From NCBI GenBank assembly GCA_965153285.1, contig OZ229110.1: a DNA stretch of 64,000 nt; one strand, given 5' to 3'. Source of the stretch: Podarcis tiliguerta. Lineage: Eukaryota. Shown here in pieces: positions 6,545-64,000 of this stretch. Numbering within the stretch: the stretch's first letter is position 1; the number at the start of each line of letters is the position of its first letter. The translations under genes were made by a program, and so were the position numbers. The notes under the pieces were generated by a model. That model had not been told where the DNA came from and ran no database searches. It was given only the letters and a program-made list of their open reading frames with translations.

Positions 6545-9500
6545 GTAGCATTTCGTTTGCTTTTATTCAACAGTTCCTCCCACAGTGAAACTCAAAAGAA
6601 CATTTCTCAGAGAAGTGTTTTTTTTTTGGGGGGGGGGGGGAGACAACAAAATGTCTAAAGTATCAACCAGTGTGTAGACTCTCTCATAGTACAACATCAA
6701 AAGGTAGAAACCTGTTACAAAATATGTAAAAAAAACCAACCCACTCAATCACAATAGTGCAAGAGGTCATGAACAATCCGTCTGGATGGAGGCAGCAAAG
6801 AGCAGACTGAAAGCAACACGACGCCCTTTTTTTAGCAAAGAGACAGTTTCTTTCCACAATAAATTAGCAGGGTATTCTATCAGTCTCCCTGCACAGCTGA
6901 CAATACCGCAGAAGAAGGACTAAAGCCAAATGGTATTATATGCTATGTAACTTTTCGGAACAGTGGGCAGGATATTGGCAAGTCAATTGAAGGCAAATCT
7001 ACCAAACACAGATATAATCAGACAGCTGTCATGCTCAGTTGTGAGGTCATAAACATCAATGATGTGTCCCAGCCTCTTCTGCTCAAGACTATAGCCTTGT
7101 CTCCTGTACATTCTCCATTCAAGAAGGTGCTTCTGGGTCTTATACTACCCAGCTTTGAATTTACACCTGCTAACCATCACAAATGGCCTTGTAAGCCTAA
7201 GGGCTGTAGTGCATTCTACATAATGACATCTCCTGAATGGAACTGGATGCACGGGGCATGTTGAATTCGAAGCTTTAAGGTGTGAATGGAAATCTGGGCA
7301 CAATTCAGAAGATACTGATTGTTATCTTTAGAAACCTAATACATTGGGACTCCAAACATCTAAGAGATATCTTCACCCTTATCCATCCTGCTCTGCCCAG
7401 TTGCTTTCTCTAAGATCAGCTGACTTTGTTCTTACAGCTCTAAGATCAGCTGTACATGTTCTTATATATGTACCTGATGCATTTGTAGCATATTTAGGAA
7501 CATAAGAGCCTGCTGATCTTAGCCCAGCATCCTATTCTAACAGTGGCCACCCAGATGCCTGAGCAAAACCCATGCAGGACACACAGAGAAGTATTTTCAG
7601 AGACTGCTATGAAACAGCAAGGTCCAAGCTTTAGCATCCTCTGGAGGATTAGCTTTTAAGTGGGTCTAGTTCACATATGTTCATTTGATTACTTTATACC
7701 TGATGACTGCCACCTGCATATGGAAGTGGACTCCACTGCAAAGCTTTTGCTCAAATCTAGTTAGGTGCTATATAGATGAGGATTCTCATCCACCACCAGG
7801 TGCTGTAGATGTGATTCCTCTCCATGACTGAGCTGTGCATAACACATTCCTCTTCGACAAACAGTAATCTTACCTATCACCTGTTGGGAAGGAAAAGGAA
7901 GAAGGCTGGATAGTACCTCTCTGTTTCTACCTCCCCTCCAAAGGGACGATAGGCATTTTAAAAACAGCTCCACATGTATAGAGCTGGGTCTTGGCTATTA
8001 ACTTACAGGTGATGTGAAATGGAAATTCTCTCTGTGACGCCCATTAGAACACAAAATACATCCTTTCATTACTTTCATCCAGTAATGAAAATGCATGTAT
8101 AAACCAGACTTAGGGCATAAGTGAAGGGAAGCATGGTAGTGTTTCTTTGGATTTGTATATTTTCAGGGTTTGGGGTTTTCCATCATGTTGTTTTGAATGT
8201 TCTTAGAATTCACTTCTGCACAGGGGTGAAACTTAAAGTATTGGCGAGGACCAGAGTGATGTCTGGTGATTGACAGCTGGACAACAGTACCCACCTGCCA
8301 AAGTAGCCTGCTGGGGTGGGGGAAAACTCAGGATTCCCCACCTCTAATCTAGATAAAATTAGTTGTTTGTACTACAGCATCACATGTCCATGCCAATACA
8401 CTATCCTCCATTTTGCCCATTGTGAAGCATGTTGACAAGGCTTGACCTTGAGCTCTTCTGGAATTATTTGGTTGTTGGTGTTTTAAGGTGCATGTGCACA
8501 GGTACAGAGATACCTGTTCACATTTTCACAATGTAAAAAGGTGGTGGTGGAGTGATTGAGAGGGATAAAACTCTCCCACATGGCATATATTCTGTTAAGC
8601 TCCACCCTCAGGTGGAATAGCAATGAATATTGTGGGTGAAAAAAGAGGGATGGTTGTATATTTGTGTACCAGTTGTCGCACACACAACAAATGGATCTGA
8701 ACGACCCAACTGCATGATAATGCCTCTGTGCTGAAGTCCCATGCTGCTTTTCCATTTACCACCTGACCCTTGAACATTCTGCTCAGGTATATCCAGACAT
8801 TTTCAAGATTATCTTTACAGTCATGTAGGGTGGAAACTTGGACTTTGTTAATTTTTGCACTTGTGTGAGACTATTGTAGACAGAGAATTCAAAGAGTACT
8901 GACAACACTGACTGCTATGCCATTATGCCAGTACATTATAAAGTAAGAATATCACACACAACTGTGGCACTGCAGTCTTTCTAAAATAAGATGCAGGTTT
9001 TGGGACAGAACATGAAAGCAGCATTGTCACCATCTACAAAAAAATAAACAGAGCACCTCCTTTCCCTATCCCTATCAAGAATATAAATTGCCATCTGTCA
9101 GAGAAGTAACCAGTCCACCCGACCATTCACTTGACCATTAATTTAAATGAAATTATTTCCTTCCTGTATCCTCCCAGTCAAGCCTGATCAAATATTATCT
9201 TAGTCCCCTCTACTGGCAGCTATAACTATGTCAAGTCTAAAGAATAATCCTGGCCCCGCTGTCAGTCTAAGTGAATAAAGGAAGCTTTCTGGCCACCAAA
9301 ATCCAAGGAAATGTGCAATTTTTAAATGTTCTGCCTTGGAGATGATAAGAAGGGAAGGTCAATCCACTTGTCCTTCACCCAGTGGAATTCCCAGGACTTC
9401 CGTCTACACTGGTGGAGAAGAAAAGCTGTAAAAATGTTTCACTAAGTGTCATGGACATGACGGAAAACTCAAGGGATGCTGTGGTGCATCTCTCATTCCT

Positions 9501-15855: not shown

Positions 15856-16138
15856 GTGGGAAGAAAAGCAAAACGAAAAAAAAGGGGAGGCAATTAAGAA
15901 CCATGAGAAGTGATATTCAATACAATCAAGTACTGCTATGTTTAATTACTACTATTACTGTTGCAAATTTTCATATCTTCAAAAAATGTAATTACTTTGC
16001 TTTATGCAGGCATTCTGTTTGCACCTTCTGACAGAACACCGTTTGATCCATTAATGTTGCACGTTACTCCAATATGACCCAGCACCCAAAATACAACTTT
16101 TCCCAGTATTATTACCCAGTTGAAGCACGAGTACCCAC

Positions 16139-18004
16139 CAGAGTTTTTGTCGGGCAGCCGATTTATCCTCCACACGATGGAATTAAAGGCATGCTCATAT
16201 TTGGCAGTTCCTAGTGTTACTCTCATTACTGGCTCAGAACCGGACACACTGGTGGATCCAAAGCTGGCGCTTTTGTTCACCTTTGCTTTCAAAGACTTTT
16301 CCCCGAGGACACTATCTCTGCGGAAGTTTTTCACCCACTCCTGTGGCACTGGGTAGCGGACCATCACATTTTCACAGGGGACCTGAGTGAGAGGGTCTCT
16401 GTTGGAGGAGAACCCCGGAGACATCATCAGCCAGCTCTGGAGCTCCACCTCAGCGCCGTTGATGCTAGCTGCAACCCTCAAGGTGAAAGGCAACGTCTTC
16501 TCGGAAAACACGCTTCTGAAGCGCATCAGTTCAAACCTGCAGGCGTCCAAGGGGTTGAACTGAATGACGCGGGCGCTGGCAAACGCCTCCTCCTCCACGC
16601 AGGAGTGGAACTGGCAATCGTACAGCTTAATCCACTTGGTGGTGGTAGTGGGCATGATGTCCTGCCGCGAGACGATTTCGTTCCCTTTGACAAGGACATC
16701 GTTGAGACCCAGCCTGCATTCCGCCAGGCCAGAAAGGAAAGTGAGAACGTGCACTCGGGTCAACACATTGTGCTGCAAAATCCTATTGTCTCTTTTGGCC
16801 AAGGTGCCATAGAACTCGTCCTTTACATCCACAGTGATTTCCTCCTCTTGGTAGTTCAATCCCACTGTGCTCAGGTCTGTTGACGAGGCAGGCAAATCCA
16901 TTAGTGTATCCTGGACCACCCTGATGAAGCTGAGGAAGTCTTCATAGCTGGTGGTACCCAGCTTGATAACCTGCTCCCTCTCCGCTATGTGAGAGACAGC
17001 AGGCTTGGGCTGATACTTCCTCTTTTCCTTGTAGGTGATGCGATCTATCCTCACACTGTGTATCCTCCCATTCTCATCATAGTTCTGGAGTTTGGGTTCT
17101 GAAATCTCATGGCTGATGTCAAGCTTGAATTCCTTGAAAGGCTTTTCCAATCCCTTCTCGTAAAAGAGCTGCAAGTACCTGCTCTCGGTCAGCTTGACGT
17201 AAATCGGCCCCCAGTGTCTAGATGACATGATGTTCTTCTTTTCTGGTATCCTCAGCATCATTGGCCAGCCATCTTTTCGCGGAGGTGGCCCCAGAAAGGA
17301 CACGGTGCTGTATAGCTCAGTTGGCACTGTGGGGTCGTCGTCGGGCAGAGTAGGACTGCTCAGCTGATCTGGGTCCCCAATCTGGAGTTGCTTGAGCTGC
17401 TCGACAGCATCTCGGTGCCTGAGGTGTCTACTTGGCTCATTAAAGCTGATGCAGTCAGGCTCCTGATGGAGGATAATGAGGGAGTCTCTCTGGTTTCTGC
17501 CAGAAATGGGAGAGGTTTGAGAATGCCTGTCCCGTTCTTCAAAGAAAGAACTGAATGGGTTGATAGGAGAAGGCTGAACATCCCTCAGGGATTCGTCAAG
17601 GAAAGGGTTAGTAGCACTCCAAGGGGGTGTCCCACTAAATGAAGGCAAGCTGGTTATTGAGGAAAGGTCTAGTTTCTGAATTTTAGGGAGGTCAGCCAAT
17701 GCACTTCTGGGGCGTTCCCTTTTCTTAAAGGATGAGGAGAGGGTAAGAGAGTTCACATCTGTGATCTGTGTTGTTGTGACTGCTGCTGCTGCTGCAGTTG
17801 CTACTAACGGTGGGGAATCTGCTTTTACGGGGGATAAAGTGGATGGAGAATTGCAGCTGACTTCATTGTCATCAAAAGTCACCCAGCTGGGGAAACGGGC
17901 TGTTGTTGGGGTTTCACTATGGCCGTTTACAGATGTGCTATTCAGCTGCCAGCTGGTGGCCTCCATGCCTAGCTCTTCATCTTCGAGAAGGGATGAGGAA
18001 TTGT
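16139..18004 (-). CDS. STON2: Stonin-2 large exon: WVTF motif, two NPF motifs, stonin-homology domain and most of the mu-homology domain
   Basis: ORF 16002..17966 extends upstream to acceptor catatag|AC (DNSSSLLEDEE). Contains RFPSWVTFDDNE, ATNPF, INPF, DGWPMMLRIPEKKNIMSSRHWGP and GTAKYEHAFNSIVWRINRLPDKNS. Donor TCTG|gtgggt. 1866 nt, phase 1-1. Confidence 0.98.
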
Positions 18005-18199
18005 CTATATGGAGAAATGAGAAGAAGTGTCAATCCTAGGATGCAAGTTCTAGGCATCATAGTACGTTTCATCATGTCTACAATGGGCGGTATGCAACTA
18101 AATAGCTGTGCTAGCACAAGGATTAGCACTAGCACAACAGTATTTCCTCCTCTACGCCACCCATGTGCATCCCACACCATCTCTAAATTTATTAAACAG

Positions 18200-21651: not shown

Positions 21652-22655
21652 ATTTCTACTGAACACAGAGTGTTAACTCCTTGATACCCACAACACTCCA
21701 ACATGACATGCCGTCGGATGCTCCCCGTCCCAGTCAAAGCACACAGTTACCTTTAAGCCACATAGGCTAGAATGCAGCTACAAGTTAAATCCCAAAGCAC
21801 CAGGGAAAGAAGGGAATCTCAGATGCTGCATAATAAGAGTACTGGCTAGATCAGACCAAATGTCTGCCTGGTTCAGTATTCTGTTTCCCAGTGTGAGCTA
21901 CAAGGAACCCACAAGGACATAAAGGCAAGGATGAGGAACATTTCTCATTCCAAGGACCATATTCCCTTCTTCCTTCCTGGGGCCACATGGCTTTGTTTGG
22001 TGGTGCCAGAGGAAAAAGTGCACAGAACAACGCATGTAATTTTTTACCTTTGTAAAAGACAAATAAAAAGCACTATCAAGAGTTCATGGACACATTCCAG
22101 CCGGACAAAAATTATCTAGAGGGGTTCAAAGCAGGACTGGTGAGGTGTGTGGCTTGGCCACATCCCCGTGGAGGGACACATTTGGCCCCTTATTTATGAC
22201 ATAAGGAAACATCCTGGCTTGGGACCCTCTTGTGTCTGTGGAATAGGGGCTTTAACTCCTTGTCTGCTGATGTGGTTCCAAACAGCCTCAGGCACCATGT
22301 GTCTGCTATTATGTTAAAGAAACATTTCCTCTTGAATGAAGGGGAGACTATGCCCCCCACAATAAGAAGAGCAGGTGAGGGAGGCCTGACGTGGATTGAG
22401 ACTAAAGCTCCCCTACTCCCAAGGTTCCAGTCTTTACCCATCTTGTTGAGCCTTAAGCTACTGGACTAGTAAGAGACAAAAAAAATATTGTGGCATATAA
22501 AAGACTAACAGATTCATTGGGGCAGAAGCGTCCATAAGGTAGAACCCAATTCATCACTTGACTGAGCTCTTGAGATTCAAAGTCTCCTTCCATTCAGCAG
22601 ACACAAACATGCTGAAAGGACAAGCTACCAGCCTGCTAGGACTTCAGACCTGGCT

Positions 22656-22939
22656 CAATTGCAGGACTGCACTGGCTGCCAGATAGTTTTCGGCCCAATT
22701 CAAAGTGCTGTTTTTGACTTATAAAGCCTTAAATGGCTCAGGACCACAAGACCTCAAGGACCACCTCTCTCCATATGAACCTACCCAGATCCTTCTTCAT
22801 GTGCCTCCTCTATGTGAGGTCAAGAGGGTGGCAACATGAAAATGGGCCTTTTCTGCAACGGCTCCCACCTGTTTTTGGTTTGAGGTTTGGCTAGTGCCTT
22901 CATTATACACATTTAGGCACCAGGTGAAAACATTCCTCT
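22656..22939 (+). mobile_element. L2-clade LINE fragment; inverted near-copy of 29495-29778
   Basis: Encodes degenerate LHWLP..F..QFKVL.LTYKALNG, an L2 ORF2 C-terminal signature. About 9 mismatches in 284 bp to the reverse complement of 29495-29778. Confidence 0.85.
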
Positions 22940-22945
22940 CCTTCT

Positions 22946-23110
22946 TTGGAGTCTCCTTCTTTGGAGGTCTTTAAGCAGAGGCTTGACAACCATATGTCAG
23001 GAGTGCTCTGATGGTGTTTCCTGTTTGGCAGGGGGTTGGACTCGATGGCCCTTGTGGTCTCTTCCAACTCTATGATTCTATTCTATTCTATTCTATTCTA
23101 TTCTATTCTG
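22946..23110 (+). mobile_element. CR1 LINE 3' end with (TATTC)n tail
   Basis: ggagtctccttctttggaggtctttaagcagaggcttgacaacc...ttccaactctatgattcta. Same family as 45069-45753. Confidence 0.9.
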
Positions 23111-24329
23111 ATTCATATGATTCATACAGCTTAATATCTGCCTCCTCACATATTCCTATCTGAGATGGCTACATACAGGAGTTTCACTGCTGCCTTAAAG
23201 ACCATTAACAGGCTGCTAATATCAGATAGCTGCACAGGGGAGATAACACATCATACATGTCTCTTTAAGGTGCAACTGGAGTTTGTATATGGAGGATTCA
23301 TCTGTTGTTATTTCTAGTCACTGGTTGGAATGTGGAATGGCAGGTACAAAGTCTTGAAAGGAAAGGAAAAAGGACAACACAGAAGATATCCACCAGGTAT
23401 TAAAGGTCGGAAGCCACAGCATGTTCAGACATAGCTCTCTCTTGTTCTACTTCTGAAAACACAGAACATGTTTGCTTTAAAATAGGACAAAGGAAAGTAT
23501 GGTCAATATAAGATTGATTTGTACTATCAGGGATGGATCTACATACAGGAAAAACACACGCTATAAATAAGTCAGAAATTAGATAGTTGTAACAAAAGGG
23601 GGAGGACCTATGGAAAATCGCGTACAAAAAAATTCTGCTCTCTGGCGCCAACTGGTGTTGCCTGTTTATAATAACACATTCAAATCATTGTTGTTTGACT
23701 AAAATAGCTGAGTCCCAGCTCTCCAGTACAACTCCAATATGTTTACACAGTGACTATTTTGTTACTATGACATTCTGGTGGCTAATATAACAGACAGGGA
23801 GTTCCAATTCAAGTCTTAGCCAGGTGATTTCTTCAGGCCAACTACAAGGAGATCAGAGACAATACAAGCTTTTGTACAGGAAAAAGCTGTAAAGAAACTT
23901 GCCTTTGCTGCACCTGTTTTGCTGATAAACTGATAGCAGGTTTGCCAGATCAGCCAAAATCAGCAGTTCCAAAGCAAGAGAGGGTTCCTTATCAGTACTT
24001 TTGGCATTTGGTTGGTATACTGGTTGCAGGAGCCACAGCAAGGCTAATTTCATAAATGGTGAATGACACTCAAAGCTGGGATTTAGCCATATCTAAGAAT
24101 ATAATATATGTGAATAGATTTATAACTATTCTTCAGAATTTCACACGACAGGAAAGATTGGGGGGGGGGGGAGAAACAGCAGCCATTTCTATTTTCAAAA
24201 CATGCTTTCACAACATTGCCCAGACCAGTTCTCATTGGTTTTCTCTTGAGCTCAAAAATAGTAACACCGGTTTCCTGCTTCTGGTGCCCAGGGTATTTCC
24301 TAAGGATCAAATGTTAATGCAGAACTGTA

Positions 24330-27633: not shown

Positions 27634-27995
27634 AGGTAAAGGTAAAGGTACCCCTGCCCGTACGGGCCAGTCTTGACAGACTCTAGGGTTGTGCGCCCAT
27701 CTCACTTAAGAGGCCAAGGGCCAGCGCTGTCCGAAGATACTTCTGGGTCACGGGGCCAGCGTGACAACGCTGCTCTGGCAAGCCAGAGCTGCACACAGAA
27801 ACGCCGTTTACCTTCCCGCTAGTAAGCGGTCCCTATTTATCTACTTGCACCCAGGGGTGCTTTTGAACTGCTAGGTTGGCAGGCGCTGGGACCGAACAGC
27901 GGGAGCGCACCCCGCCGCGGGGATTCGAACCACTGACCTTTCGATCGGCAAGCCCTAGGCGCTGAGGCTTTAACCCACAGCGCCACCCGCGTCCC
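27634..27995 (-). mobile_element. Sauria SINE, full length
   Basis: Minus strand gggacgcgggtggcgctgtgggttaaa...ggttcgaatcccc (box B)...(ACCTTT)n tail. Degenerate TSD ending ggataat. CpG-rich, so young. Confidence 0.92.
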
Positions 27996-29263: not shown

Positions 29264-29295
<32 letters not shown>

Positions 29296-29778
29296 ATTTT
29301 TTTAAAAATTGTATGCCACCCTTCATCTGTAGATCTCAGGACGGTTCACAACATAAAATTACAATATAAAAACCACAAAAAACATGATAAAAATAAGAAC
29401 CAAACCAAACCAAACCAAACCAAACCAATAATCTCCCCTCCGACAACACATTTAAAAGGGCATTGTATGTCAAATCAGCCAAAGGCCTGGTTGAAGAGGA
29501 ACGTTTTCACCTGGTGCCTAAATGTGTATAATGAAGTCACCAGCCGAACCTCAAACCAAAAACAGGTGGGAGCCGTTGCAGAAAAGGCCCGTTTTCATGT
29601 TGCCACCCTCTTGACCTCACATAGAGGAGGCCCATGAAGAAGGGTCTGGGTAGGTTCATATGGAGAGAGGTGGTCCTTGAGGTCTTGTGGTCCTGAGCCA
29701 TTTAGGGCTTTATAAGTCAAAAACAGCACTTTGAATTGGGCCGAAAACTAACTGGCAGCCAGTGCAGTCCTGCAATTG
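29261..29778 (-). mobile_element. L2-clade LINE 3' fragment with (TTTA)n tail and internal (CCAAA)n
   Basis: L2 ORF2 C-terminal signature on the minus strand, 3'UTR, and aaataaataa tail at 29261-29294. Confidence 0.8.
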
Positions 29779-30788: not shown

Positions 30789-31188
30789 TTACTATTTGTA
30801 CCCCGCCCATCCAGCTGGGCCTCCCCAGCCACTCTGGGCGGCTTCCAACAAAGATGAAAAATACACTAAAATGTCACATATTAAAAACTTCCCTGAACAG
30901 GGCTGCCTTCAGATGTCTTCTGAATGTCAGGTAGTTGTTTATCGCTTTGACATCTGATGGGAGGGTGTTCCACAGGGCGGGCGCCACTACCGAGAAGGCC
31001 CTCTGCCTGGTTCCCTGTAACCTGGCCTCTCGCAGTGAGGGAACCGCCAGAAGGCCCTCGGAGGTGGACCTCAGTGTCCGGGCAGAACGATGGGGGTGGA
31101 GACGCTCCTTCAGATATACTGGACCGAGGCCGTTTAGGGCTTTAAAGGTCAGCACCAACACTTTGAATTGTGCTCGGAAACGTACTGG
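30742..31188 (-). mobile_element. L2-clade LINE 3' fragment (young) with (TAA)n tail
   Basis: ORF VLTFKALNGLGPVYLKERL...RAFSVVAPALWNTLP..FRRHLKAALF. CpG-rich. Confidence 0.9.
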
Positions 31189-36346: not shown

Positions 36347-36797
36347 TAATGTAACACCAATCCTGAAAGATCTACATTGGCTCCCTGTTTCTGAGCACAA
36401 TTCAAAGTGTGGTGCTGACCTTTAAAGCCCTAAACAGCCTCGGCTCAGTATACCTGAAGGAGTGTCTCCACCCCCATTGTTCAGCCCAGACACTGAGGTG
36501 CAGCTCCGAGGGCCTTCTGGCGGTTCGCTCACTGCAAGAAGTGAAGTTACAGAGAACAAGGCAGAGGGCCTTCTCGGTGGTGGCGCCCGCCCTGTGGAAC
36601 GCCTTCCCATCAGATGCCAAGGAAACAAACAACTATCTGACTTTTAGAAGACATCTGAAGGCAGTCCTGTTTAGGGAAGTTTTTAATGTTTGAGGTTTTA
36701 TTGTGTTTTTAATATTCTGTTGGAAGCCGCCCAGAGTGTCTGGGGAAACCCAGCCAGATCGGCGGGGTATAAATAATAAATTATTATTATTATATAT
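36347..36797 (+). mobile_element. L2-clade LINE 3' fragment with (ATT)n tail
   Basis: TPILKDLHWLP..VLTFKALNSLGSVYLKE...FRRHLKAVLF. Inverted relative to 30742-31188. Confidence 0.9.
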
Positions 36798-45068: not shown

Positions 45069-45753
45069 GAGCAGTACATGTGAAAAGGATCTAGGAGTCT
45101 TGGTTGACCACAAACTTGACATGAGCCAACAGTGTGACGCAGCAGCTAAAAAAGCCAATGCAATTCTGGGCTGCATCAATAGGAGTATAGCATCTAGATC
45201 AAGGGAAGTAATAGTGCCACTGTATTCTGCTCTGGTCAGACCTCACCTGGAGTACTGTGTCCAGTTCTGGGCACCACAGTTCAAGAAGGACACTTACAAA
45301 CTAGAACGTGTCCAGAGGAGAGCAACCAAAATGGTCAAAGGCCTGGAAACGATGCCTTATGAGGAACGGCTAAGGGAGCTGGGCATGCTTAGCCTGGAGA
45401 AGAGGAGGTTAAGGGGTGATATGATAGCCATGTTCAAATATATAAAAGGATGTCACATAGAGGAGGGAGAAATGTTGTTTTCTGCTGCTCCAGAGAAGCG
45501 GACACGGAGCAATGGATCCAAACTACAAGAAAGAAGATTCCACCTAAACATTAGGAAGAACTTCCTGACAGTAAGAGCTGTTCGACAGTGGAATTTGCTG
45601 CCAAGGAGTGTGGTGGAGTCTCCTTCTTTGGAGGTCTTTAAGCAGAGGCTTGACAACCATATGTCAAGATTGGTCTGATGGTGTTTCCTGCTTGGCAGGG
45701 GGTTGGACTCGATGGCCCTTGTGGTCTATTCCAACTCTATGATTCTAAGATTC
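45069..45753 (+). mobile_element. CR1 LINE 3' fragment with uninterrupted ORF2 C-terminus
   Basis: ORF 45100..45678 [16 protein letters not shown]...[19 protein letters not shown]...LEKRRLRGD. Tail ttccaactctatgattcta. Confidence 0.95.
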
Positions 45754-47131: not shown

Positions 47132-47550
47132 TGTTGTTGTTTAGTCGTTCAGTCGTGTCCGACTCTTCGTGACCCCATGGACCAGAGCACGCCAGGTACT
47201 CCTGTCTTCCACTGCCTCCCACAGTTTGGTCAGATTCATGTTTGTAGCTTTGACAACACTGTCTAACCATCTCGTCCTCTGTCATCCCCTTCTCCTTGTG
47301 CCCTCCATCTTTCCCAACATCAGGGTCTTTTCCAGGGAGTCTTCTCTTCTCATGAGGTGGCCAAAGTATCGGCTGTAGGATCTGTCCTTCCAGTGAGCAC
47401 TCAGGGCTGATTTCCTTAAGAATGGGTGCGTTTGATCTTCTTGCAGTGCATGGGACTCTCAAGAGTCTCCTCCAGCACCATAATTCAAAAGCGTCAATTC
47501 TTCGGCGATCAGCCTTCTTTATGGTCCAGCTCTCACTTCCATACATCACT
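47132..47550 (-). mobile_element. BovB (RTE) LINE 3' fragment with 13-bp TSD
   Basis: MYGSESWTIKKADRRRIDAFELWCWRRLLRVP. (CAA)n tail. TSD aacatcaatgtat at 47119-47131 and 47551-47563. Confidence 0.93.
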
Positions 47551-49023: not shown

Positions 49024-49386
49024 GGGACACAGGTGGCGCTGTGGGTAAAAGCCTCAGTGCCTAGGACTTGCCGATCGAAAGGTCGGCGGTTCGAATCCCT
49101 GCAGCGGGGTGCGCTCCCGTTGCTCGGTCCCAGCGCCTGCCAACCTAGCAGTTCGAAAGCACTCCCGGGTGCAAGTAGATAAATAGGGACCGCTTACTAG
49201 CGGGAAGGTAAACGGCGTTTCCGTGTGCTGCGCTGGCTTGCCAGATGCAGCTTGTCACACTGGCCACGTGACCCGGAAGTGTCTCTGGACAGCGCTGGCC
49301 CCCGGCCTCTTAAGTGAGATGGGCGCACAACCCTAGAGTCTGTCAAGACTGGCCCGGACGGGCAGGGGTACCTTTACCTTTACCTT
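49024..49386 (+). mobile_element. Sauria SINE, full length
   Basis: gggacacaggtggcgctgtgggtaaaa...ggttcgaatccc...(ACCTTT)n. TSD-like tatccttact on both sides. Same subfamily as 27634-27995. Confidence 0.93.
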
Positions 49387-52033: not shown

Positions 52034-52440
52034 AGTGATGTATGGAAGTGAGAGCTGGACCATAAAGAAGGCTGATCACCGAAGAATTGATGCTGGTGCT
52101 GGAGGAGACTCTTGAGAGTCCCACGAACTGCAAGAAGATCAAACCTATCCATTCTTAAGGAAATCAGCCCTGAGTGCTCACTGGAAGGACAGATCCTAAA
52201 GCCGATACTTTGGCCACCTCATGAGAAGAGAAGACTCCCTGGAAAAGAACCTGATGTTGGGAAAGATGGAGGGCACAAGGAGAAGGGGACGACAGATGAG
52301 ATGGTTGGATAGTGTTCTCGAAGCTACAGCATGAGTTTGACCAAACTGCAGGAGGCAGTGGAAGACAGGAGTGCCTGGCGTGCTGTGGTCCATGGGGTCA
52401 CGAAGAGTCGGACACGACTAAACGACTAAACAATAACAAA
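52034..52440 (+). mobile_element. BovB (RTE) LINE 3' fragment
   Basis: agtgatgtatggaagtgagagctggacc...gtcacgaagagtcggacacgactaaacgactaaacaa. Confidence 0.92.
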
Positions 52441-55400: not shown

Positions 55401-57425
55401 CTTCAAACTGAACTCCCGCCCATTGCAAAGATATCTGACTTTCCACATTGCATGGCAGAGCCGAGACCCAAAGTCAGCATGATAAATCCTGAAAAGACAC
55501 TTTTATCTATTTGCAAATCCTCCCCACAATATTCAGATAGCACTGGTTGCTTGGTATGTGACTGTGTAAATTTTACCTAGGAAAGGTGAAGGTCTAAACC
55601 TAGGACAGCTATCCTTGAAGCTTGTCAAAAGTTCACCTCACTGCCCTGAAGTAGGCCACATATGAATTGCATATGAATTAGCCACAGACCACGTCCAGCT
55701 TTTAATTTGATCAAACACAGGCTTCATGTGCTTTAGTGTAAATATTTGTGCTTTCTACCTCTGGGCATATCAGGGGCACAGCTTAACATTCCAGCAGGCA
55801 GAATCTACTTCTGATTATTTTTTATCACGCAGGTCTGCCCATTTGTTTCTCTCTCTTGACCAAAACAGATGTAGCTTTAAAGTAGCTGTGGAGGACTCAG
55901 ATTTTAATCAGAACAGCAGCAATGGGTGGAGGGGTGTTTAATTAACGCTATCATGCCCCAGCTACTATTTATCCTACAGGAGCAAAATCTATGGAGGAAG
56001 CAGGTAATCTATCTGTATTCCACCCCATCCCCCAGGTAAGCCTCATATCAGCTGGGGGGGGGGGAGGGATTTAGATTACAAAAATGGCACAGACAGAAAG
56101 GGTTATACAACTCCCCCCTCAGATCTGCTGCTTTGACCAAAAGTCTGCCCCCCACAACAGCTGAGTAAAAGTTGTTTTTTAAAAAAGTCAAAAGATCTCA
56201 TCACATATCTCCATAGGTTGTCTTGATTCTCTCTCTGCTTTTTCCTTTGTCTTAGGGCCAAAGAACAGTACACGAGAAATTATGCAATGCCTTTAGCCCT
56301 GGGGTACATGATTTCCCCCTCCCATAATAAGCAGCCATCTTGGGAGGGGGGAAAGGTTAAAGTCCCCCCCCCCCCCAGGGCCACAGTCCTCATCTGGCCT
56401 AGGAAAGGGCAGAGCAGGAATATCAGGGCTAAAGACATATACGTTATCAGGTCTTCTTTAGCTCTTAAAAAAAGATTCTTGCCCCCTCCCCCGGGGGGGG
56501 GGGGGGCTAGAAGTTTCTCCTTGTCAGTGAAGGAAAGGTGAGTGTGCTGAAGGAACTAGAATATTTTAACTACAGATTAAACTGATTTGTAAAACATTCT
56601 CATAAGTCTCACGAGTGGTCTTCTTTGACAACTGGCACAGCTGGGGTGGCCCTGAGGCAAAATGGGAAGGTGCCACCTCACTGCCTCCCATTTGCCAAAT
56701 CCTCGCTTACCAGGGTCATGCAGTGGTGGCTTCCGGAGACATCTCACTGGAAGCCACCACTGCTTCTCTCAGCTTCTCCTGTGGTGGTGGGGTGGGCGGG
56801 GCTCACACAGGGGCACTGCCCCGTGAGATTCTGCCACCCAAGGCGGCTGCCTCAGTCCATCTCATCCCTTACTAGGGCCAAAAGACTGATACTGATGCAC
56901 CGGAAATATAAGTGAACGGCTCCATTTAATCAGTGGACTGAAGATATGACTGCACTTGCAACTTATGAACCAATTGCTTAGAGATGTAGACTTTGCATGG
57001 ACAAGTATAAAGACATTTGGAACACTTTTACACAAAATATAGTAGGTTAAAAATAAGCATATATGCATCTGGATAATAATAAAACCTGCACATCAGAGAA
57101 GTATAAACGGGATTGTAATTGTTAACTCGTATAATGATATAGTATAACTTTTATTTATTTCACTTTTTATTCTTGTTTTATGTTTGTTTGGTTAAACTGT
57201 TCTTTAAAAGACTTAATAAAATGGGTAGGCCAGTCATGGGTTTAGCAAGAGCACCAAGAATAAGGTAACTTATAGTTGACCGAGCCATCTTCTGAAGCTC
57301 GTATCATGATACTGCATTTGTAATAGGCTGATCCAGGATTCATTGCAAATTTAGATTCCAATGTTAACAGTTTATTTAGGGAAATGTGACCAATGAAAGG
57401 GGAAGGAAGCACAAAGCTGGCTTAC

Positions 57426-57623
57426 CGGTTGAGTCTGCTGCAGATGCTCTGCCACTGGTCAGGTCTTCAGTGTTTATGGACTGCAGGTCAGTATAGGAAG
57501 GTGTGAAACTGGGGCTGCTGGTGTTCTCAGAAGTAGTTGTCCAACTGTTGTCTGACGTGAGAGGCCTTCTCTCAGAAGATCCCGAAGAGGGACATGTCCA
57601 GCAGAATGTTTTTGGAGAGAAGG
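57426..57623 (-). CDS. STON2: Stonin-2 coding exon (Ser/Thr-rich N-terminal region)
   Basis: CWTCPSSGSSERRPLTSDNSWTTTSENTSSPSFTPSYTDLQSINTEDLTSGRASAADST matches STON2. Long polypyrimidine tract plus aag| acceptor, donor ACCG|gtaagc. 198 nt, phase 1-1. Confidence 0.93.
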
Positions 57624-61137: not shown

Positions 61138-61401
61138 CTGTATGTGCATTCTCTGGTGAAGTGCTAGGCCAGGGTGCATCTTCAAACTGGACCCATGTGC
61201 TGAATGATGAAGACAGATCAGGCTTTGGAGACGGGTGGTTTTCAAGCAAACATACGGACACAGAGTCTGCAGCAGTTTTGTCCATTCCATCTCCCAGCTC
61301 AGCATGTGCAAGTGTCTGAAATTCTCCATCCAGGTTTTGGATGCCTTCAGAAGAAGTATCAGAGGAGGACAGAAACCTTTCAAGAGGTTCTCCAGCTTGG
61401 C
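61138..61401 (-). CDS. STON2: Stonin-2, first coding exon in window (probably coding exon 2); N-terminal region with WVQF AP-2-binding motif
   Basis: Translation ...PKPDLSSSFSTWVQFEDAPWPSTSP... resembles mammalian STON2 (PDLASAISNWVQFEDDTPWASTSP). Acceptor cttcttgcag|G, donor ACAG|gttgga. 264 nt, phase 1-1. Confidence 0.9.
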
Positions 61402-61592
61402 CTGCAAGAAGAATCACAATATAATGTAGAAGTAACAAGGAATTTTTAAACATCCCTTTTCATCATTTGTAAATGTTCAATGTGTATAGGGCAATGTTAC
61501 AGCTTTATGCTTCTGAGTGAAGCTACCTGTTATAAGAAACACGGCACCCCATGTTAAGTCATTCTCCTTTCCACCATTAAAGAGACTTTGTA

Positions 61593-61897
61593 ATGAATCA
61601 TAGAATCATAGAGTTGGAAGAGACCACAAGGGCCATCGAGTCCAACCCCCTGCCAAGCAGGAAACACCATCAGAGCACTCCTGACATATGGTTGTCAAGC
61701 CTCTGCTTAAAGACCTCCAAAGAAGGAGACTCCACCACACTCCTTGGCAGCAAATTCCACTGTCAAACAGCTCTTACTGTCAGGAAGTTCTTCCTAATGT
61801 ATAGGTGGAATCTTCTTTCTTGTAGTTTGGATCCATTGCTCCGTGTCCTCTTCTCTGGAGCAGCAGAAAACAACCTTTCTCCCTCCTCTATGTGACA
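61593..61897 (-). mobile_element. CR1 LINE 3' fragment
   Basis: Reverse complement about 97% identical by eye to 45450-45753. (ATTCTATG)n tail. Confidence 0.93.
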
Positions 61898-62393
61898 TAG
61901 TACATGTTATACTGTGCCCCAGTGTCATTATACTGAGCAAGTATCCATCCCTGCCTGAAAGGATGTGAAGGTGGGGTGGGCAAATACACAACTTAAATGC
62001 AGTTTCCACTACTCATTCTGGGGCTGGTTGGTCTTGGGAGTGAGGGACTTGTAGACCAGCAATATCTGGAGGGCTGCAGAGTCCTCATCCCTGAACTAGA
62101 TGTTACAGAGGAGAAGGAGAAGCTCGGCACAAGGCTGCTCCCCCCCCCCCCAAGACAAGTTTCTTATAACACATTGAGGTGGTATATAAAAACTGAACAT
62201 AGCTACCCACATGTAATCAAATCCTTTAGCTACTTTCATCTAGACTGTCTTTCCAAGGAGCTTAGGGTGACCCCATTTTAACTCCATAACTACGCTTTAA
62301 GGTAGGATAGGCTGATAAGAATGTTTAACTCAAGTTCTCCCTATGAGTTGAAAAAGGAATTCAACCTAGTTCTGAGTCCGAAACACTCTATCC

Positions 62394-62531: not shown

Positions 62532-64000
62532 CTCTATCCATTACTTCACACTGGATTTGCACTGTACAGACTCATGCTAGTAAAAGTCATAACTACTGCT
62601 GAAGGTAGACTGAAGCTGCTGCCTTGGGTTGCAGAATCCCATGGGGGGGGGAGGTACTCTTGCTGGTGGGGCTGTGCAACGGTGACTTCCAGCCAGATCT
62701 TGCAAAATCTCATGGAACTCTGGCAATATCTTGCAGTGCTTTTGTGAGCTCTCACAATATCTCGTTGGAAGCTGCTGCGAGACCTCAGTAAGCGAGGCTT
62801 TGGCGTTGTGGTGGAACAGCTTCCCGTTTTACCGCAGGCAGTGAAATGGGATGGTCCACCCCTGAGCACAAGCAATTCCTATTCATGCAAGGAGCTCCTC
62901 CATTTTAGTAGGCCTGTGTGCGACATGCAACTGGGAAAACACAAAACCCCATGGGAGGAAGACCCATCAGTTTGTGCCTCTCCTTAATGAATGGAGAAGA
63001 GGCAGCACTTGTTAAAAACAAAAAACAAAAACCACTTATGTTTAAGTACAACCCACAGAGGACTTTGGATTGGAGTAAAAGAGTTGCCTTGTTTCCCTTG
63101 ACTAACTTATTTATATCAAGATACAGCAACAGCCTATTTCATCAGAGGGAAGGAATTTGCCTACCCTGGGAGGCAACCGGTAGCAGCAGCCCATCGTTGA
63201 AGGAGACCCACTCTGATTGCTGGGAAGCAATTACGTTGGCTAGTGATGTCATGCTCGCTGCAAGTCGCTACTCATCTTCACATCACTGGCAGACAGTAGA
63301 CAGCAGACAGCCCTCTTTGTTGCAAAGTTGTCATTTTTTAAAAAATCATTTCATTCCTGACACAGCAGCTGTAAGGAGGGTGAAAAAAGATTAGAAATCC
63401 ACAATTTGATTGTACAAGGGTATAAATGGCTACTAGTAAAGATTAGTGTCTCTGAATACCATTTGCTGCGGAAAACATACAGGAAAGTGCTATTGAACTA
63501 CAGCAGGAGAGAGCAAATTTCAGGCTTGTGAGCTCCTAACAAATGGGTAGAAGGGGTAGGATTTGGGGGTTGGGTATAAGCTTAGCTTTCCTTTTTAAAA
63601 AAGGAAGTGGACATTTCTGAGGGACAGGGAAGGATATTGGGGTATGCTTGCTTAAGCACTTTTCTATTATTTCATTCATTCCTGAGTCTGCAGCCTTTGC
63701 AGAATAAAACACAACTGGCTGGTTTGGGCATGTTTTATCCCAAAGTAACTTCCTTGAAATAAAGATGTTATGCCAATCTTATTGGAGATTCAGTAACTTC
63801 TTGTGAAATTCCTAGAGATGTTTTGGCTGGGCAGGGATAAAAACCAACTATTACTAGTCTTGTTTCAAATGGCAAAATGGATTGGGCTGGCCCTGTGCGA
63901 TTCGGAAGGAGGTCTACTGTTGCTTGCATATGGAATTTGTGTAAGTAAGTGTAAATCAAGTAACCTATTTTTTTCTGGAATTGGAACTTTGGCTCTTTTG

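What the first reader, a model, noticed from the sequence alone, without database searches (positions are those of the whole stretch)
22656..23110. Chimeric CR1 insertion apparently carrying an inverted copy of a segment from 6.5 kb away in the same intron
Seen: 22656-22939 is the reverse complement of 29495-29778, with about 9 mismatches in 284 bp. The two share the same 5' end (caattgcagga) and the same apparently idiosyncratic internal segments (cccacctgtttttggtttgagg; ccaga.ccttcttcatg). The 29k locus continues into a normal L2 3' tail. The 22k copy instead stops and is fused to a young CR1 3' end, with a microduplication at the junction (cttctttggag|tctccttctttggagg). Read in CR1 orientation, the captured piece is the STON2 sense (pre-mRNA) strand. 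Inference: during target-primed reverse transcription the CR1 RT switched template onto the nascent host pre-mRNA or nearby DNA and wrote local intron sequence back into the gene. Such chimeras are established for mammalian L1. I do not know of this local-capture pattern for squamate CR1. The pair also forms a ~280-bp dsRNA stem in the pre-mRNA.
Basis: partly seen in the sequence, partly recalled or inferred. Interest (0 to 1): 0.7.

Follow-up and report, generated by a model that had tools for sequence, protein, structure and literature searches.

The report
CR1 insertion captured nearby intron sequence
A young jumping gene in an intron of the STON2 gene sits fused to a reversed 284-base copy of the same intron from 6.5 kb away; three related organisms lack both pieces, so they likely arrived in one event, probably when the element's enzyme jumped onto the host gene's unfinished RNA, a rare accident already described for human L1.

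Summary
Confirmed. Window 22656-22939 is an ungapped inverted copy of 29495-29778 (9 differences in 284). The next best genome hits are 84% or less, and a private 22-base segment occurs exactly at these two places only. Contigs from 3 of 3 other organisms cross the site empty: 22658-23125 is missing as one block, with 9 unseen letters in its place. Both other organisms tested keep the donor's 5' junction. This refutes an ordinary subfamily and an inversion. Copy and CR1 piece are of compatible age. The junction microduplication is a recurring CR1 5'-end slip, not special to this locus. Local capture was found in 0 of 147 other CR1 copies, so it is rare. One insertion event is likely (about 0.88). 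Whether the template was nascent STON2 pre-mRNA (0.55) or DNA (0.33) is not shown: orientation and position fit RNA, but no RNA-only mark exists. Human L1 precedents exist for both routes; I found none for CR1. The dsRNA stem is ordinary in this intron. The scan noted a similar one-off local duplicate at CR1-like copies in another genome (e1-7811928).

The parts
22656..22939 (+). Captured 284-bp segment: inverted copy of 29495-29778 (9 bases of donor flank plus 275 bases of an old LINE fragment; the L2 label is recalled)
   Evidence: absent in 3 of 3 other organisms
22656..22657 (+). 2-base microhomology between the left flank and the donor
   Evidence: empty-site contigs match up to 22657; donor match starts at 22656
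22937..22951 (+). Re-copied 15 bases of the CR1's own sequence (second copy at 22952-22966); its first 3 bases are shared with the donor end
   Evidence: same junction at 2 other places exactly and a third with one mismatch
22947..23081 (+). 3' end of a young CR1-type LINE, 5'-truncated, antisense to STON2
   Evidence: 1 substitution in 135 against the family majority; 16,384 exact matches of a 31-mer; a long copy encodes endonuclease and RT
23075..23125 (+). Tail: seven 5-base units, then two tail-like 8-9-base units; the match to relatives resumes at 23126
29495..29778 (-). Donor segment, 6,555 bases from the copy and upstream of it in STON2 transcription
   Evidence: 5' junction present in 4 of 4 runs laid
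29290..29494 (-). Rest of the donor LINE (3' tail), not copied; lower bound approximate
16002..18029 (-). STON2 large exon (open frame) downstream of the intron
   Evidence: Stonin2_N and Adap_comp_sub
57424..57612 (-). STON2 exon upstream of the intron (further exons at 61139-61405 and 63157-63252)

Best explanation
A young CR1 piece and an inverted 284-base copy of intron sequence from 6.5 kb away sit fused at a site that is empty in three related organisms; they likely entered in one retrotransposition event in which the CR1 reverse transcriptase probably switched onto nascent STON2 pre-mRNA. Steps: (1) inferred: target-primed reverse transcription began at the 22.66 kb site, antisense to STON2, on the CR1 tail; (2) structure shown, cause inferred: after about 135 bases the cDNA slipped back on a 5-base repeat and re-copied 15 bases; (3) inferred: the cDNA end paired over 3 bases with the pre-mRNA at 29495, already transcribed and tethered near the site, and copied 284 bases; (4) inferred: the end was joined to the left flank over 2 shared bases, with up to 9 target bases lost or changed; (5) shown in part: both copies then diverged by ordinary mutation. 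An antisense CR1 plus a sense RNA template necessarily gives an inverted copy. No function is implied.
For: Unique donor: 97% against 84% or less for the 38 other scored hits; the private 22-mer matches exactly at 2 places. One block: single contigs of organisms B, C and D join 22657 to 23126 on one strand with 9 letters between (records 9, 16, 24). Donor older: its 5' junction is in B and C at single-contig depth. Ages compatible: family median 0.99% from the majority state (62 copies), expected 5.6-6.1 differences, P(9 or more) 0.12-0.16; Fisher P 0.44 for 6/284 against 1/135. The CR1 end looks like a native 5' end: re-copying of 10 or more bases at 9 of 107 copies against 0.8% in shuffled pairs. 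For RNA: sense orientation and upstream position both fit; 6.5 kb is far beyond the roughly 15 bp typical of DNA-templated L1 inserts; one L1 pre-mRNA co-insertion is reported.
Against: No RNA-only mark: the piece is intronic, and none of the 9 differences is A-to-G in the 22k copy. A DNA template gives this orientation half the time, and always if the displaced non-template strand of a transcribed gene is used (inference). DNA-templated L1 inserts are reported more often (22 among 3,598 insertions) than pre-mRNA capture (one event). No second case in 147 copies, so no orientation statistic. Nine differences are slightly many for an event younger than the split from organism B (P 0.012; 0.14 without the 3 CpG changes) or C (P 0.077). 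Germline expression of STON2 is untested. No listed contig of another individual showed the copy-CR1 junction itself.
Confidence: 0.55

Rival explanations
1. Same single CR1 insertion, but the 284 bases were copied from DNA: the cDNA end or the left target end invaded the 29.5-29.8 kb locus on 2-3 bases of microhomology, was extended by a host polymerase or the RT, and returned (synthesis-dependent strand annealing or polymerase-theta-type templated insertion).
For: All single-event evidence. Short microhomologies at both ends and no clear target duplication. Extra 5' bases of zebrafish L2-clade inserts are largely copied from flanking DNA. L1 templated insertions are attributed to DNA. One 26-bp foldback among the scanned CR1 copies shows local templating at a 5' end in this family.
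Against: Reported DNA templates typically lie within 15 bp of the site and are under 250 bp, or are 52-220 bp foldbacks; here 284 bp at 6.5 kb. It does not predict the sense, upstream position that is seen.
Confidence: 0.33
2. Two separate events at one spot: a repair-templated inverted duplication and, before or after it, an independent CR1 insertion exactly at its edge.
For: Mild excess of differences in the pair relative to flank divergence from organism B (P 0.012). Only one individual each of B, C and D was laid.
Against: No intermediate state in 3 of 3 other organisms. It needs two rare events at the same base. The CR1's slipped 5' end abuts the copy with 3 shared bases. Ages do not differ significantly.
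Confidence: 0.08
3. A 6.5-kb inversion with a staggered break duplicated the segment at both ends; or both copies are members of a dispersed subfamily; or the assembly is wrong.
For: The layout fits a staggered-break inversion on paper, no exon match lies between the copies, and the last bases of the left flank resemble the family sequence upstream of the donor's truncation point.
Against: Relatives join left and right flank on the same strand and carry the donor junction as in the window, which excludes the inversion. The private 22-mer has 2 exact matches. Run X19 has a contig with another flank joined at the segment's start, and run X1 shows doubled depth breaking at exactly 29778.
Confidence: 0.04

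Closest known systems
L1 insertion co-inserted with local precursor mRNA (PMC10191854, section 11 and Extended Data Fig. 9g legend)
   Same: 5' part of a LINE insert copied from a gene transcribed near the site, read as RT strand switching
   Different: That was one somatic human L1 event in an adenoma clone; this is a CR1-type element, inherited, with 284 intronic bases from 6.5 kb away. The figure itself was not seen.
L1 templated insertions (10.1101/2024.08.27.596794, 22 cases; PMC11702581, three cases; passages)
   Same: Chimeric LINE that duplicates a nearby genomic segment of similar size
   Different: Typically under 250 bp and within 15 bp of the site, attributed to DNA; the distance figure is in a supplement that was not seen
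5' extra nucleotides of zebrafish ZfL2-1 and ZfL2-2 (CR1-2_DR) (PMC4245944, PMC4760211; passages)
   Same: A non-L1 LINE whose 5' junction carries bases copied from flanking DNA or from the LINE itself, with 1-2 bp microhomology
   Different: Described as several bases from the flanks, not hundreds from kilobases away
U6 snRNA-LINE chimeras with L1, L2 and RTE in Anolis and with L2 in platypus (PMC4476161; passages)
   Same: Template switching by non-L1 LINEs in a lizard
   Different: The partner is an abundant small RNA, not the local host transcript; the one CR1-like candidate (turkey) was unresolved

Membership tests
CR1-type non-LTR retrotransposon (3' piece) | 3' octamer repeat ATTCTRTG (definition from PMC2612034) | tested here: met
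   97 of 107 scanned copies carry the octamer at the tail; in this copy the tail turns into a 5-base repeat
CR1-type non-LTR retrotransposon (3' piece) | ORF2 with AP-type endonuclease and reverse transcriptase in long copies | tested here: met
   977-aa frame in L096 hits RVT_1 and Exo_endo_phos
CR1-type non-LTR retrotransposon (3' piece) | RT phylogeny places it in the CR1 clade | not tested
   No tree or repeat library used; the clade label rests on the tail and on recall
L2 (donor element) | LINE RT frame upstream and L2-clade placement | tested here: inconclusive
   Family loci show broken RT-like frames and no significant match to the CR1 copy; the name L2 is recalled
Chimeric or templated LINE insertion | Both parts absent together at the orthologous site | tested here: met
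   3 of 3 other organisms
Chimeric or templated LINE insertion | 5' part traces to one older donor locus | tested here: met
Chimeric or templated LINE insertion | One target-site duplication around both parts | tested here: inconclusive
   No duplication above 3 bases is visible and the 9 empty-site letters were not printed; matches of 6 or more bases occur at 12 of 107 copies against 5.4% in controls, so long duplications are not this family's habit
RT switch onto host pre-mRNA | Captured piece is transcript-sense in LINE orientation | tested here: met
RT switch onto host pre-mRNA | RNA-only marks (splice junction, A-to-G editing, poly(A)) | tested here: inconclusive
   None seen, but none is required for an intronic piece
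RT switch onto host pre-mRNA | Host gene transcribed in germline or early embryo | not tested

The most novel reading that the evidence does not exclude
CR1, a LINE thought to copy only RNA bearing its own 3' end, can jump onto the nascent transcript of the gene it is invading and write host intron sequence back into that gene in the germline. Such copies would form a rare, countable class of CR1-made local duplications whose orientation records germline transcription.
Probability: 0.45. Interest if true: 0.6.

Novelty: new member of a known kind. Interest (0 to 1): 0.42.

Why it matters
It is a clean natural, inherited example of a LINE duplicating local host sequence, with donor, empty site and both junctions identified, in a clade for which I found no report. 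It suggests a test: this genome has at least 16,000 young CR1 copies, so even a rate well under 2% could give enough cases to tell RNA from DNA templating by orientation. By itself the event is one intronic accident with no shown effect on STON2.

Tried and rejected
Staggered-break inversion: rejected. Dispersed subfamily: rejected (one search scored only 40 of 5,482 candidates; the pattern count is whole). Flank searches for a repeat spanning the empty site gave nothing useful. Age mismatch between copy and CR1: one search listed many 100% matches, but these were the top 40 of 971; among 107 scanned copies only the window copy itself was identical and it carries one change from the majority, so no significant mismatch. 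A hairpin as cause of the slip: z -0.83, not significant. Heterozygosity of run X19: contig breaks at 22625 and 23126 and a junction depth of 48.8 against 115.9 suggest it, but the donor flank is also at 54.5, so not shown. Allele states of the donor interior in relatives could not be read because family contigs swamped the tables. Scan hits set aside: c25 and c38 (upstream is CR1 itself), c63 (a short CR1 nested in reverse), c78 (26-bp foldback at the junction). PMC1716264 is not held. No earlier notes on this genome.

Full report
Observation. Window 22656-22939 is an ungapped inverted copy of 29495-29778 with 9 mismatches in 284 bases, 6,555 bases apart. The 29k copy continues into the family's 3' tail; the 22k copy joins a CR1-type 3' end at 22947-23081 through a 15-base duplication. 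Pfam places STON2 exons on the minus strand at 63157-63252, 61139-61405, 57424-57612 and in the open frame 16002-18029. Both copies therefore lie in one intron of about 39 kb, the CR1 is antisense to the gene, and the donor is upstream in transcription.

Is the donor unique? Of 40 scored candidates out of 5,482, the two window copies score 100% and 97%; the other 38 score 74-84% and start at query position 6-40. The first 9 shared bases are in 0 of 28 family loci, so the copy includes donor flank. A 22-base segment across a private deletion matches exactly at the two copies only, plus one place at 2 mismatches, against 3 in the reversed control.

Orthologous sites. One search listed 24 runs from 8 coded organisms; I laid 6 different runs in two calls. 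In one search, single contigs from organisms B (X2), C (X22) and D (X8) match up to 22657 and resume at 23126 on the same strand, with 9 letters between that were not printed. So 468 bases holding copy, CR1 and tail are absent together in 3 of 3 other organisms. The organism A run (X19) had no listed contig across the site. In one search the donor's 5' junction was present in 4 of 4 runs (X19, X1, X2, X22). In B and C the depth across it equals one contig. In X19 a second contig carries 60 unlaid letters joined at 29778 with one difference, and another carries three differences over 29511-29590; I read both as the 22k copy. X19 may be the window's own sample. In X1, a more distant organism A sample, a contig of doubled depth (20.3 against 10.5) breaks at exactly 29778 with no difference; I infer a second copy there that lacks the change at 22683. 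These results exclude an inversion, make an assembly error unlikely, and fix the direction as 29k to 22k.

Timing. Against 28 family copies, 5 differences are derived in the 22k copy, 3 in the donor, and one CpG site is ambiguous. The CR1 piece has 1 change in 135 from the family majority; the family median is 0.99% over an unselected part of 62 copies; 9 or more differences then have P 0.12-0.16. Against flank divergence from organism B (12 of 937) P is 0.012, from C (18 of 995) 0.077, and without the three CpG changes 0.14 and 0.36. The ages are compatible, with a mild excess that ancestral polymorphism or CpG decay could explain (inference).

Junctions. The left junction shares 2 bases with the donor and the copy-CR1 junction 3. 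The duplication is a re-copy of the CR1's own sequence between two 5-base repeats. The same 28-base junction occurs at 3 places in the genome, and a fourth has one mismatch. Re-copying of 10 or more bases is seen at 9 of 107 5' ends against 0.8% in shuffled pairs. It marks a native CR1 5' end and says nothing special about capture. Target-duplication-like matches of 6 or more bases occur at 12 of 107 copies against 5.4% in controls, so their absence here is usual.

How common? A 31-mer of the family has 16,384 exact matches (the number is a power of two, so I treat it as a minimum). I fetched about 10 kb around each of the first 100 listed places and about 20 kb around 30 of the 39 other places. 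Testing for a match of 25 or more bases at 90% or more that abuts the 5' end, the window copy was recovered. Four of 106 other copies in the first set gave a hit, all explained as CR1 itself, a nested CR1 or a 26-bp foldback; 0 of 41 in the second set did. Random points matched in 28 of 624 trials, which I read as repeat interiors. So 0 of 147 other copies show distant capture (upper 95% bound 2.0%), and 0 of 55 with at least 6.6 kb on both sides (bound 5.3%). Most of the first set reached only about 5 kb and would have missed a case like this one.

Mechanism. One event is the simplest reading (about 0.88). For the template, RNA is favoured by the sense orientation, the upstream position, the distance, and the fact that the RT had just slipped on RNA at the same junction. 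It is not proven: no RNA-only mark is present, a DNA template can give the same layout, and germline expression was not examined. I give RNA 0.55, DNA 0.33, two events 0.08, others 0.04. The pair can form a stem in the pre-mRNA, but the window has 48 inverted pairs of 40 or more bases and 6 of the 8 longest lie within this intron.

Known work. PMC10191854 (section 11 and a figure legend) reports one L1 insertion co-inserted with nearby precursor mRNA, and 52-220 bp foldbacks. 10.1101/2024.08.27.596794 (passages) reports 22 templated insertions, typically under 250 bp and within 15 bp; its supplement is closed. PMC11702581 (passages and part of one supplementary legend) reports three. PMC4245944 (part 2 of 5 and passages) and PMC4760211 (passages) show flank-derived extra bases for zebrafish LINEs. 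PMC4476161 (passages) shows U6 chimeras with L1, L2 and RTE in a lizard. 10.1101/2025.02.02.635956 (passages) covers L1-RNA chimeras and does not mention CR1. PMC13343379 (passages) had nothing on this, and PMC2612034 (passages) gave the octamer definition. Searches showed no report of kilobase-range local capture by CR1 in their listings; the library lacks most subscription papers. That CR1 is a stringent LINE is recalled.

Verdict. Real, well bounded and probably a single CR1 insertion with local capture; a new member of a known kind, rare, with no shown function. Interest 0.42.

Noticed in passing
CR1 5' ends in L073-L172; L040, L041, L042: This CR1 family often re-copies its own sequence at the 5' truncation point (9 of 107 copies with 10 or more bases, against 0.8% in controls); the same slip as at 22937-22966 recurs at three other loci.
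   Followed up: partly
L090, about position 6900-6930: A perfect 26-base foldback directly at a CR1 5' junction, like the foldbacks described for L1.
   Followed up: no
L128-L129 boundary (G000:C1 near 2,503,600): A CR1 3' fragment of about 110 bases nested in reverse inside another young CR1 copy.
   Followed up: partly
window 29770-29778: The captured piece ends only 9 bases beyond the donor LINE's own 5' end, inside a short tandem unit; unexplained.
   Followed up: no
window 22649-22657: The last bases of the left flank resemble the family sequence upstream of the donor's truncation point, yet they are ancestral flank in the empty-site contigs; probably chance.
   Followed up: yes
window 22625-23126, run X19: Contig breaks fit an individual carrying one filled and one empty allele, which would make the insertion polymorphic; depths are too erratic to decide.
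   Followed up: partly
window 45450-45753 and 61595-61898; 27634-27995 and 49024-49385; 30851-31157 and 36410-36716; 47275-47480 and 52094-52299: Further long inverted repeat pairs (87-97%) within the STON2 transcript that could also pair as RNA.
   Followed up: no
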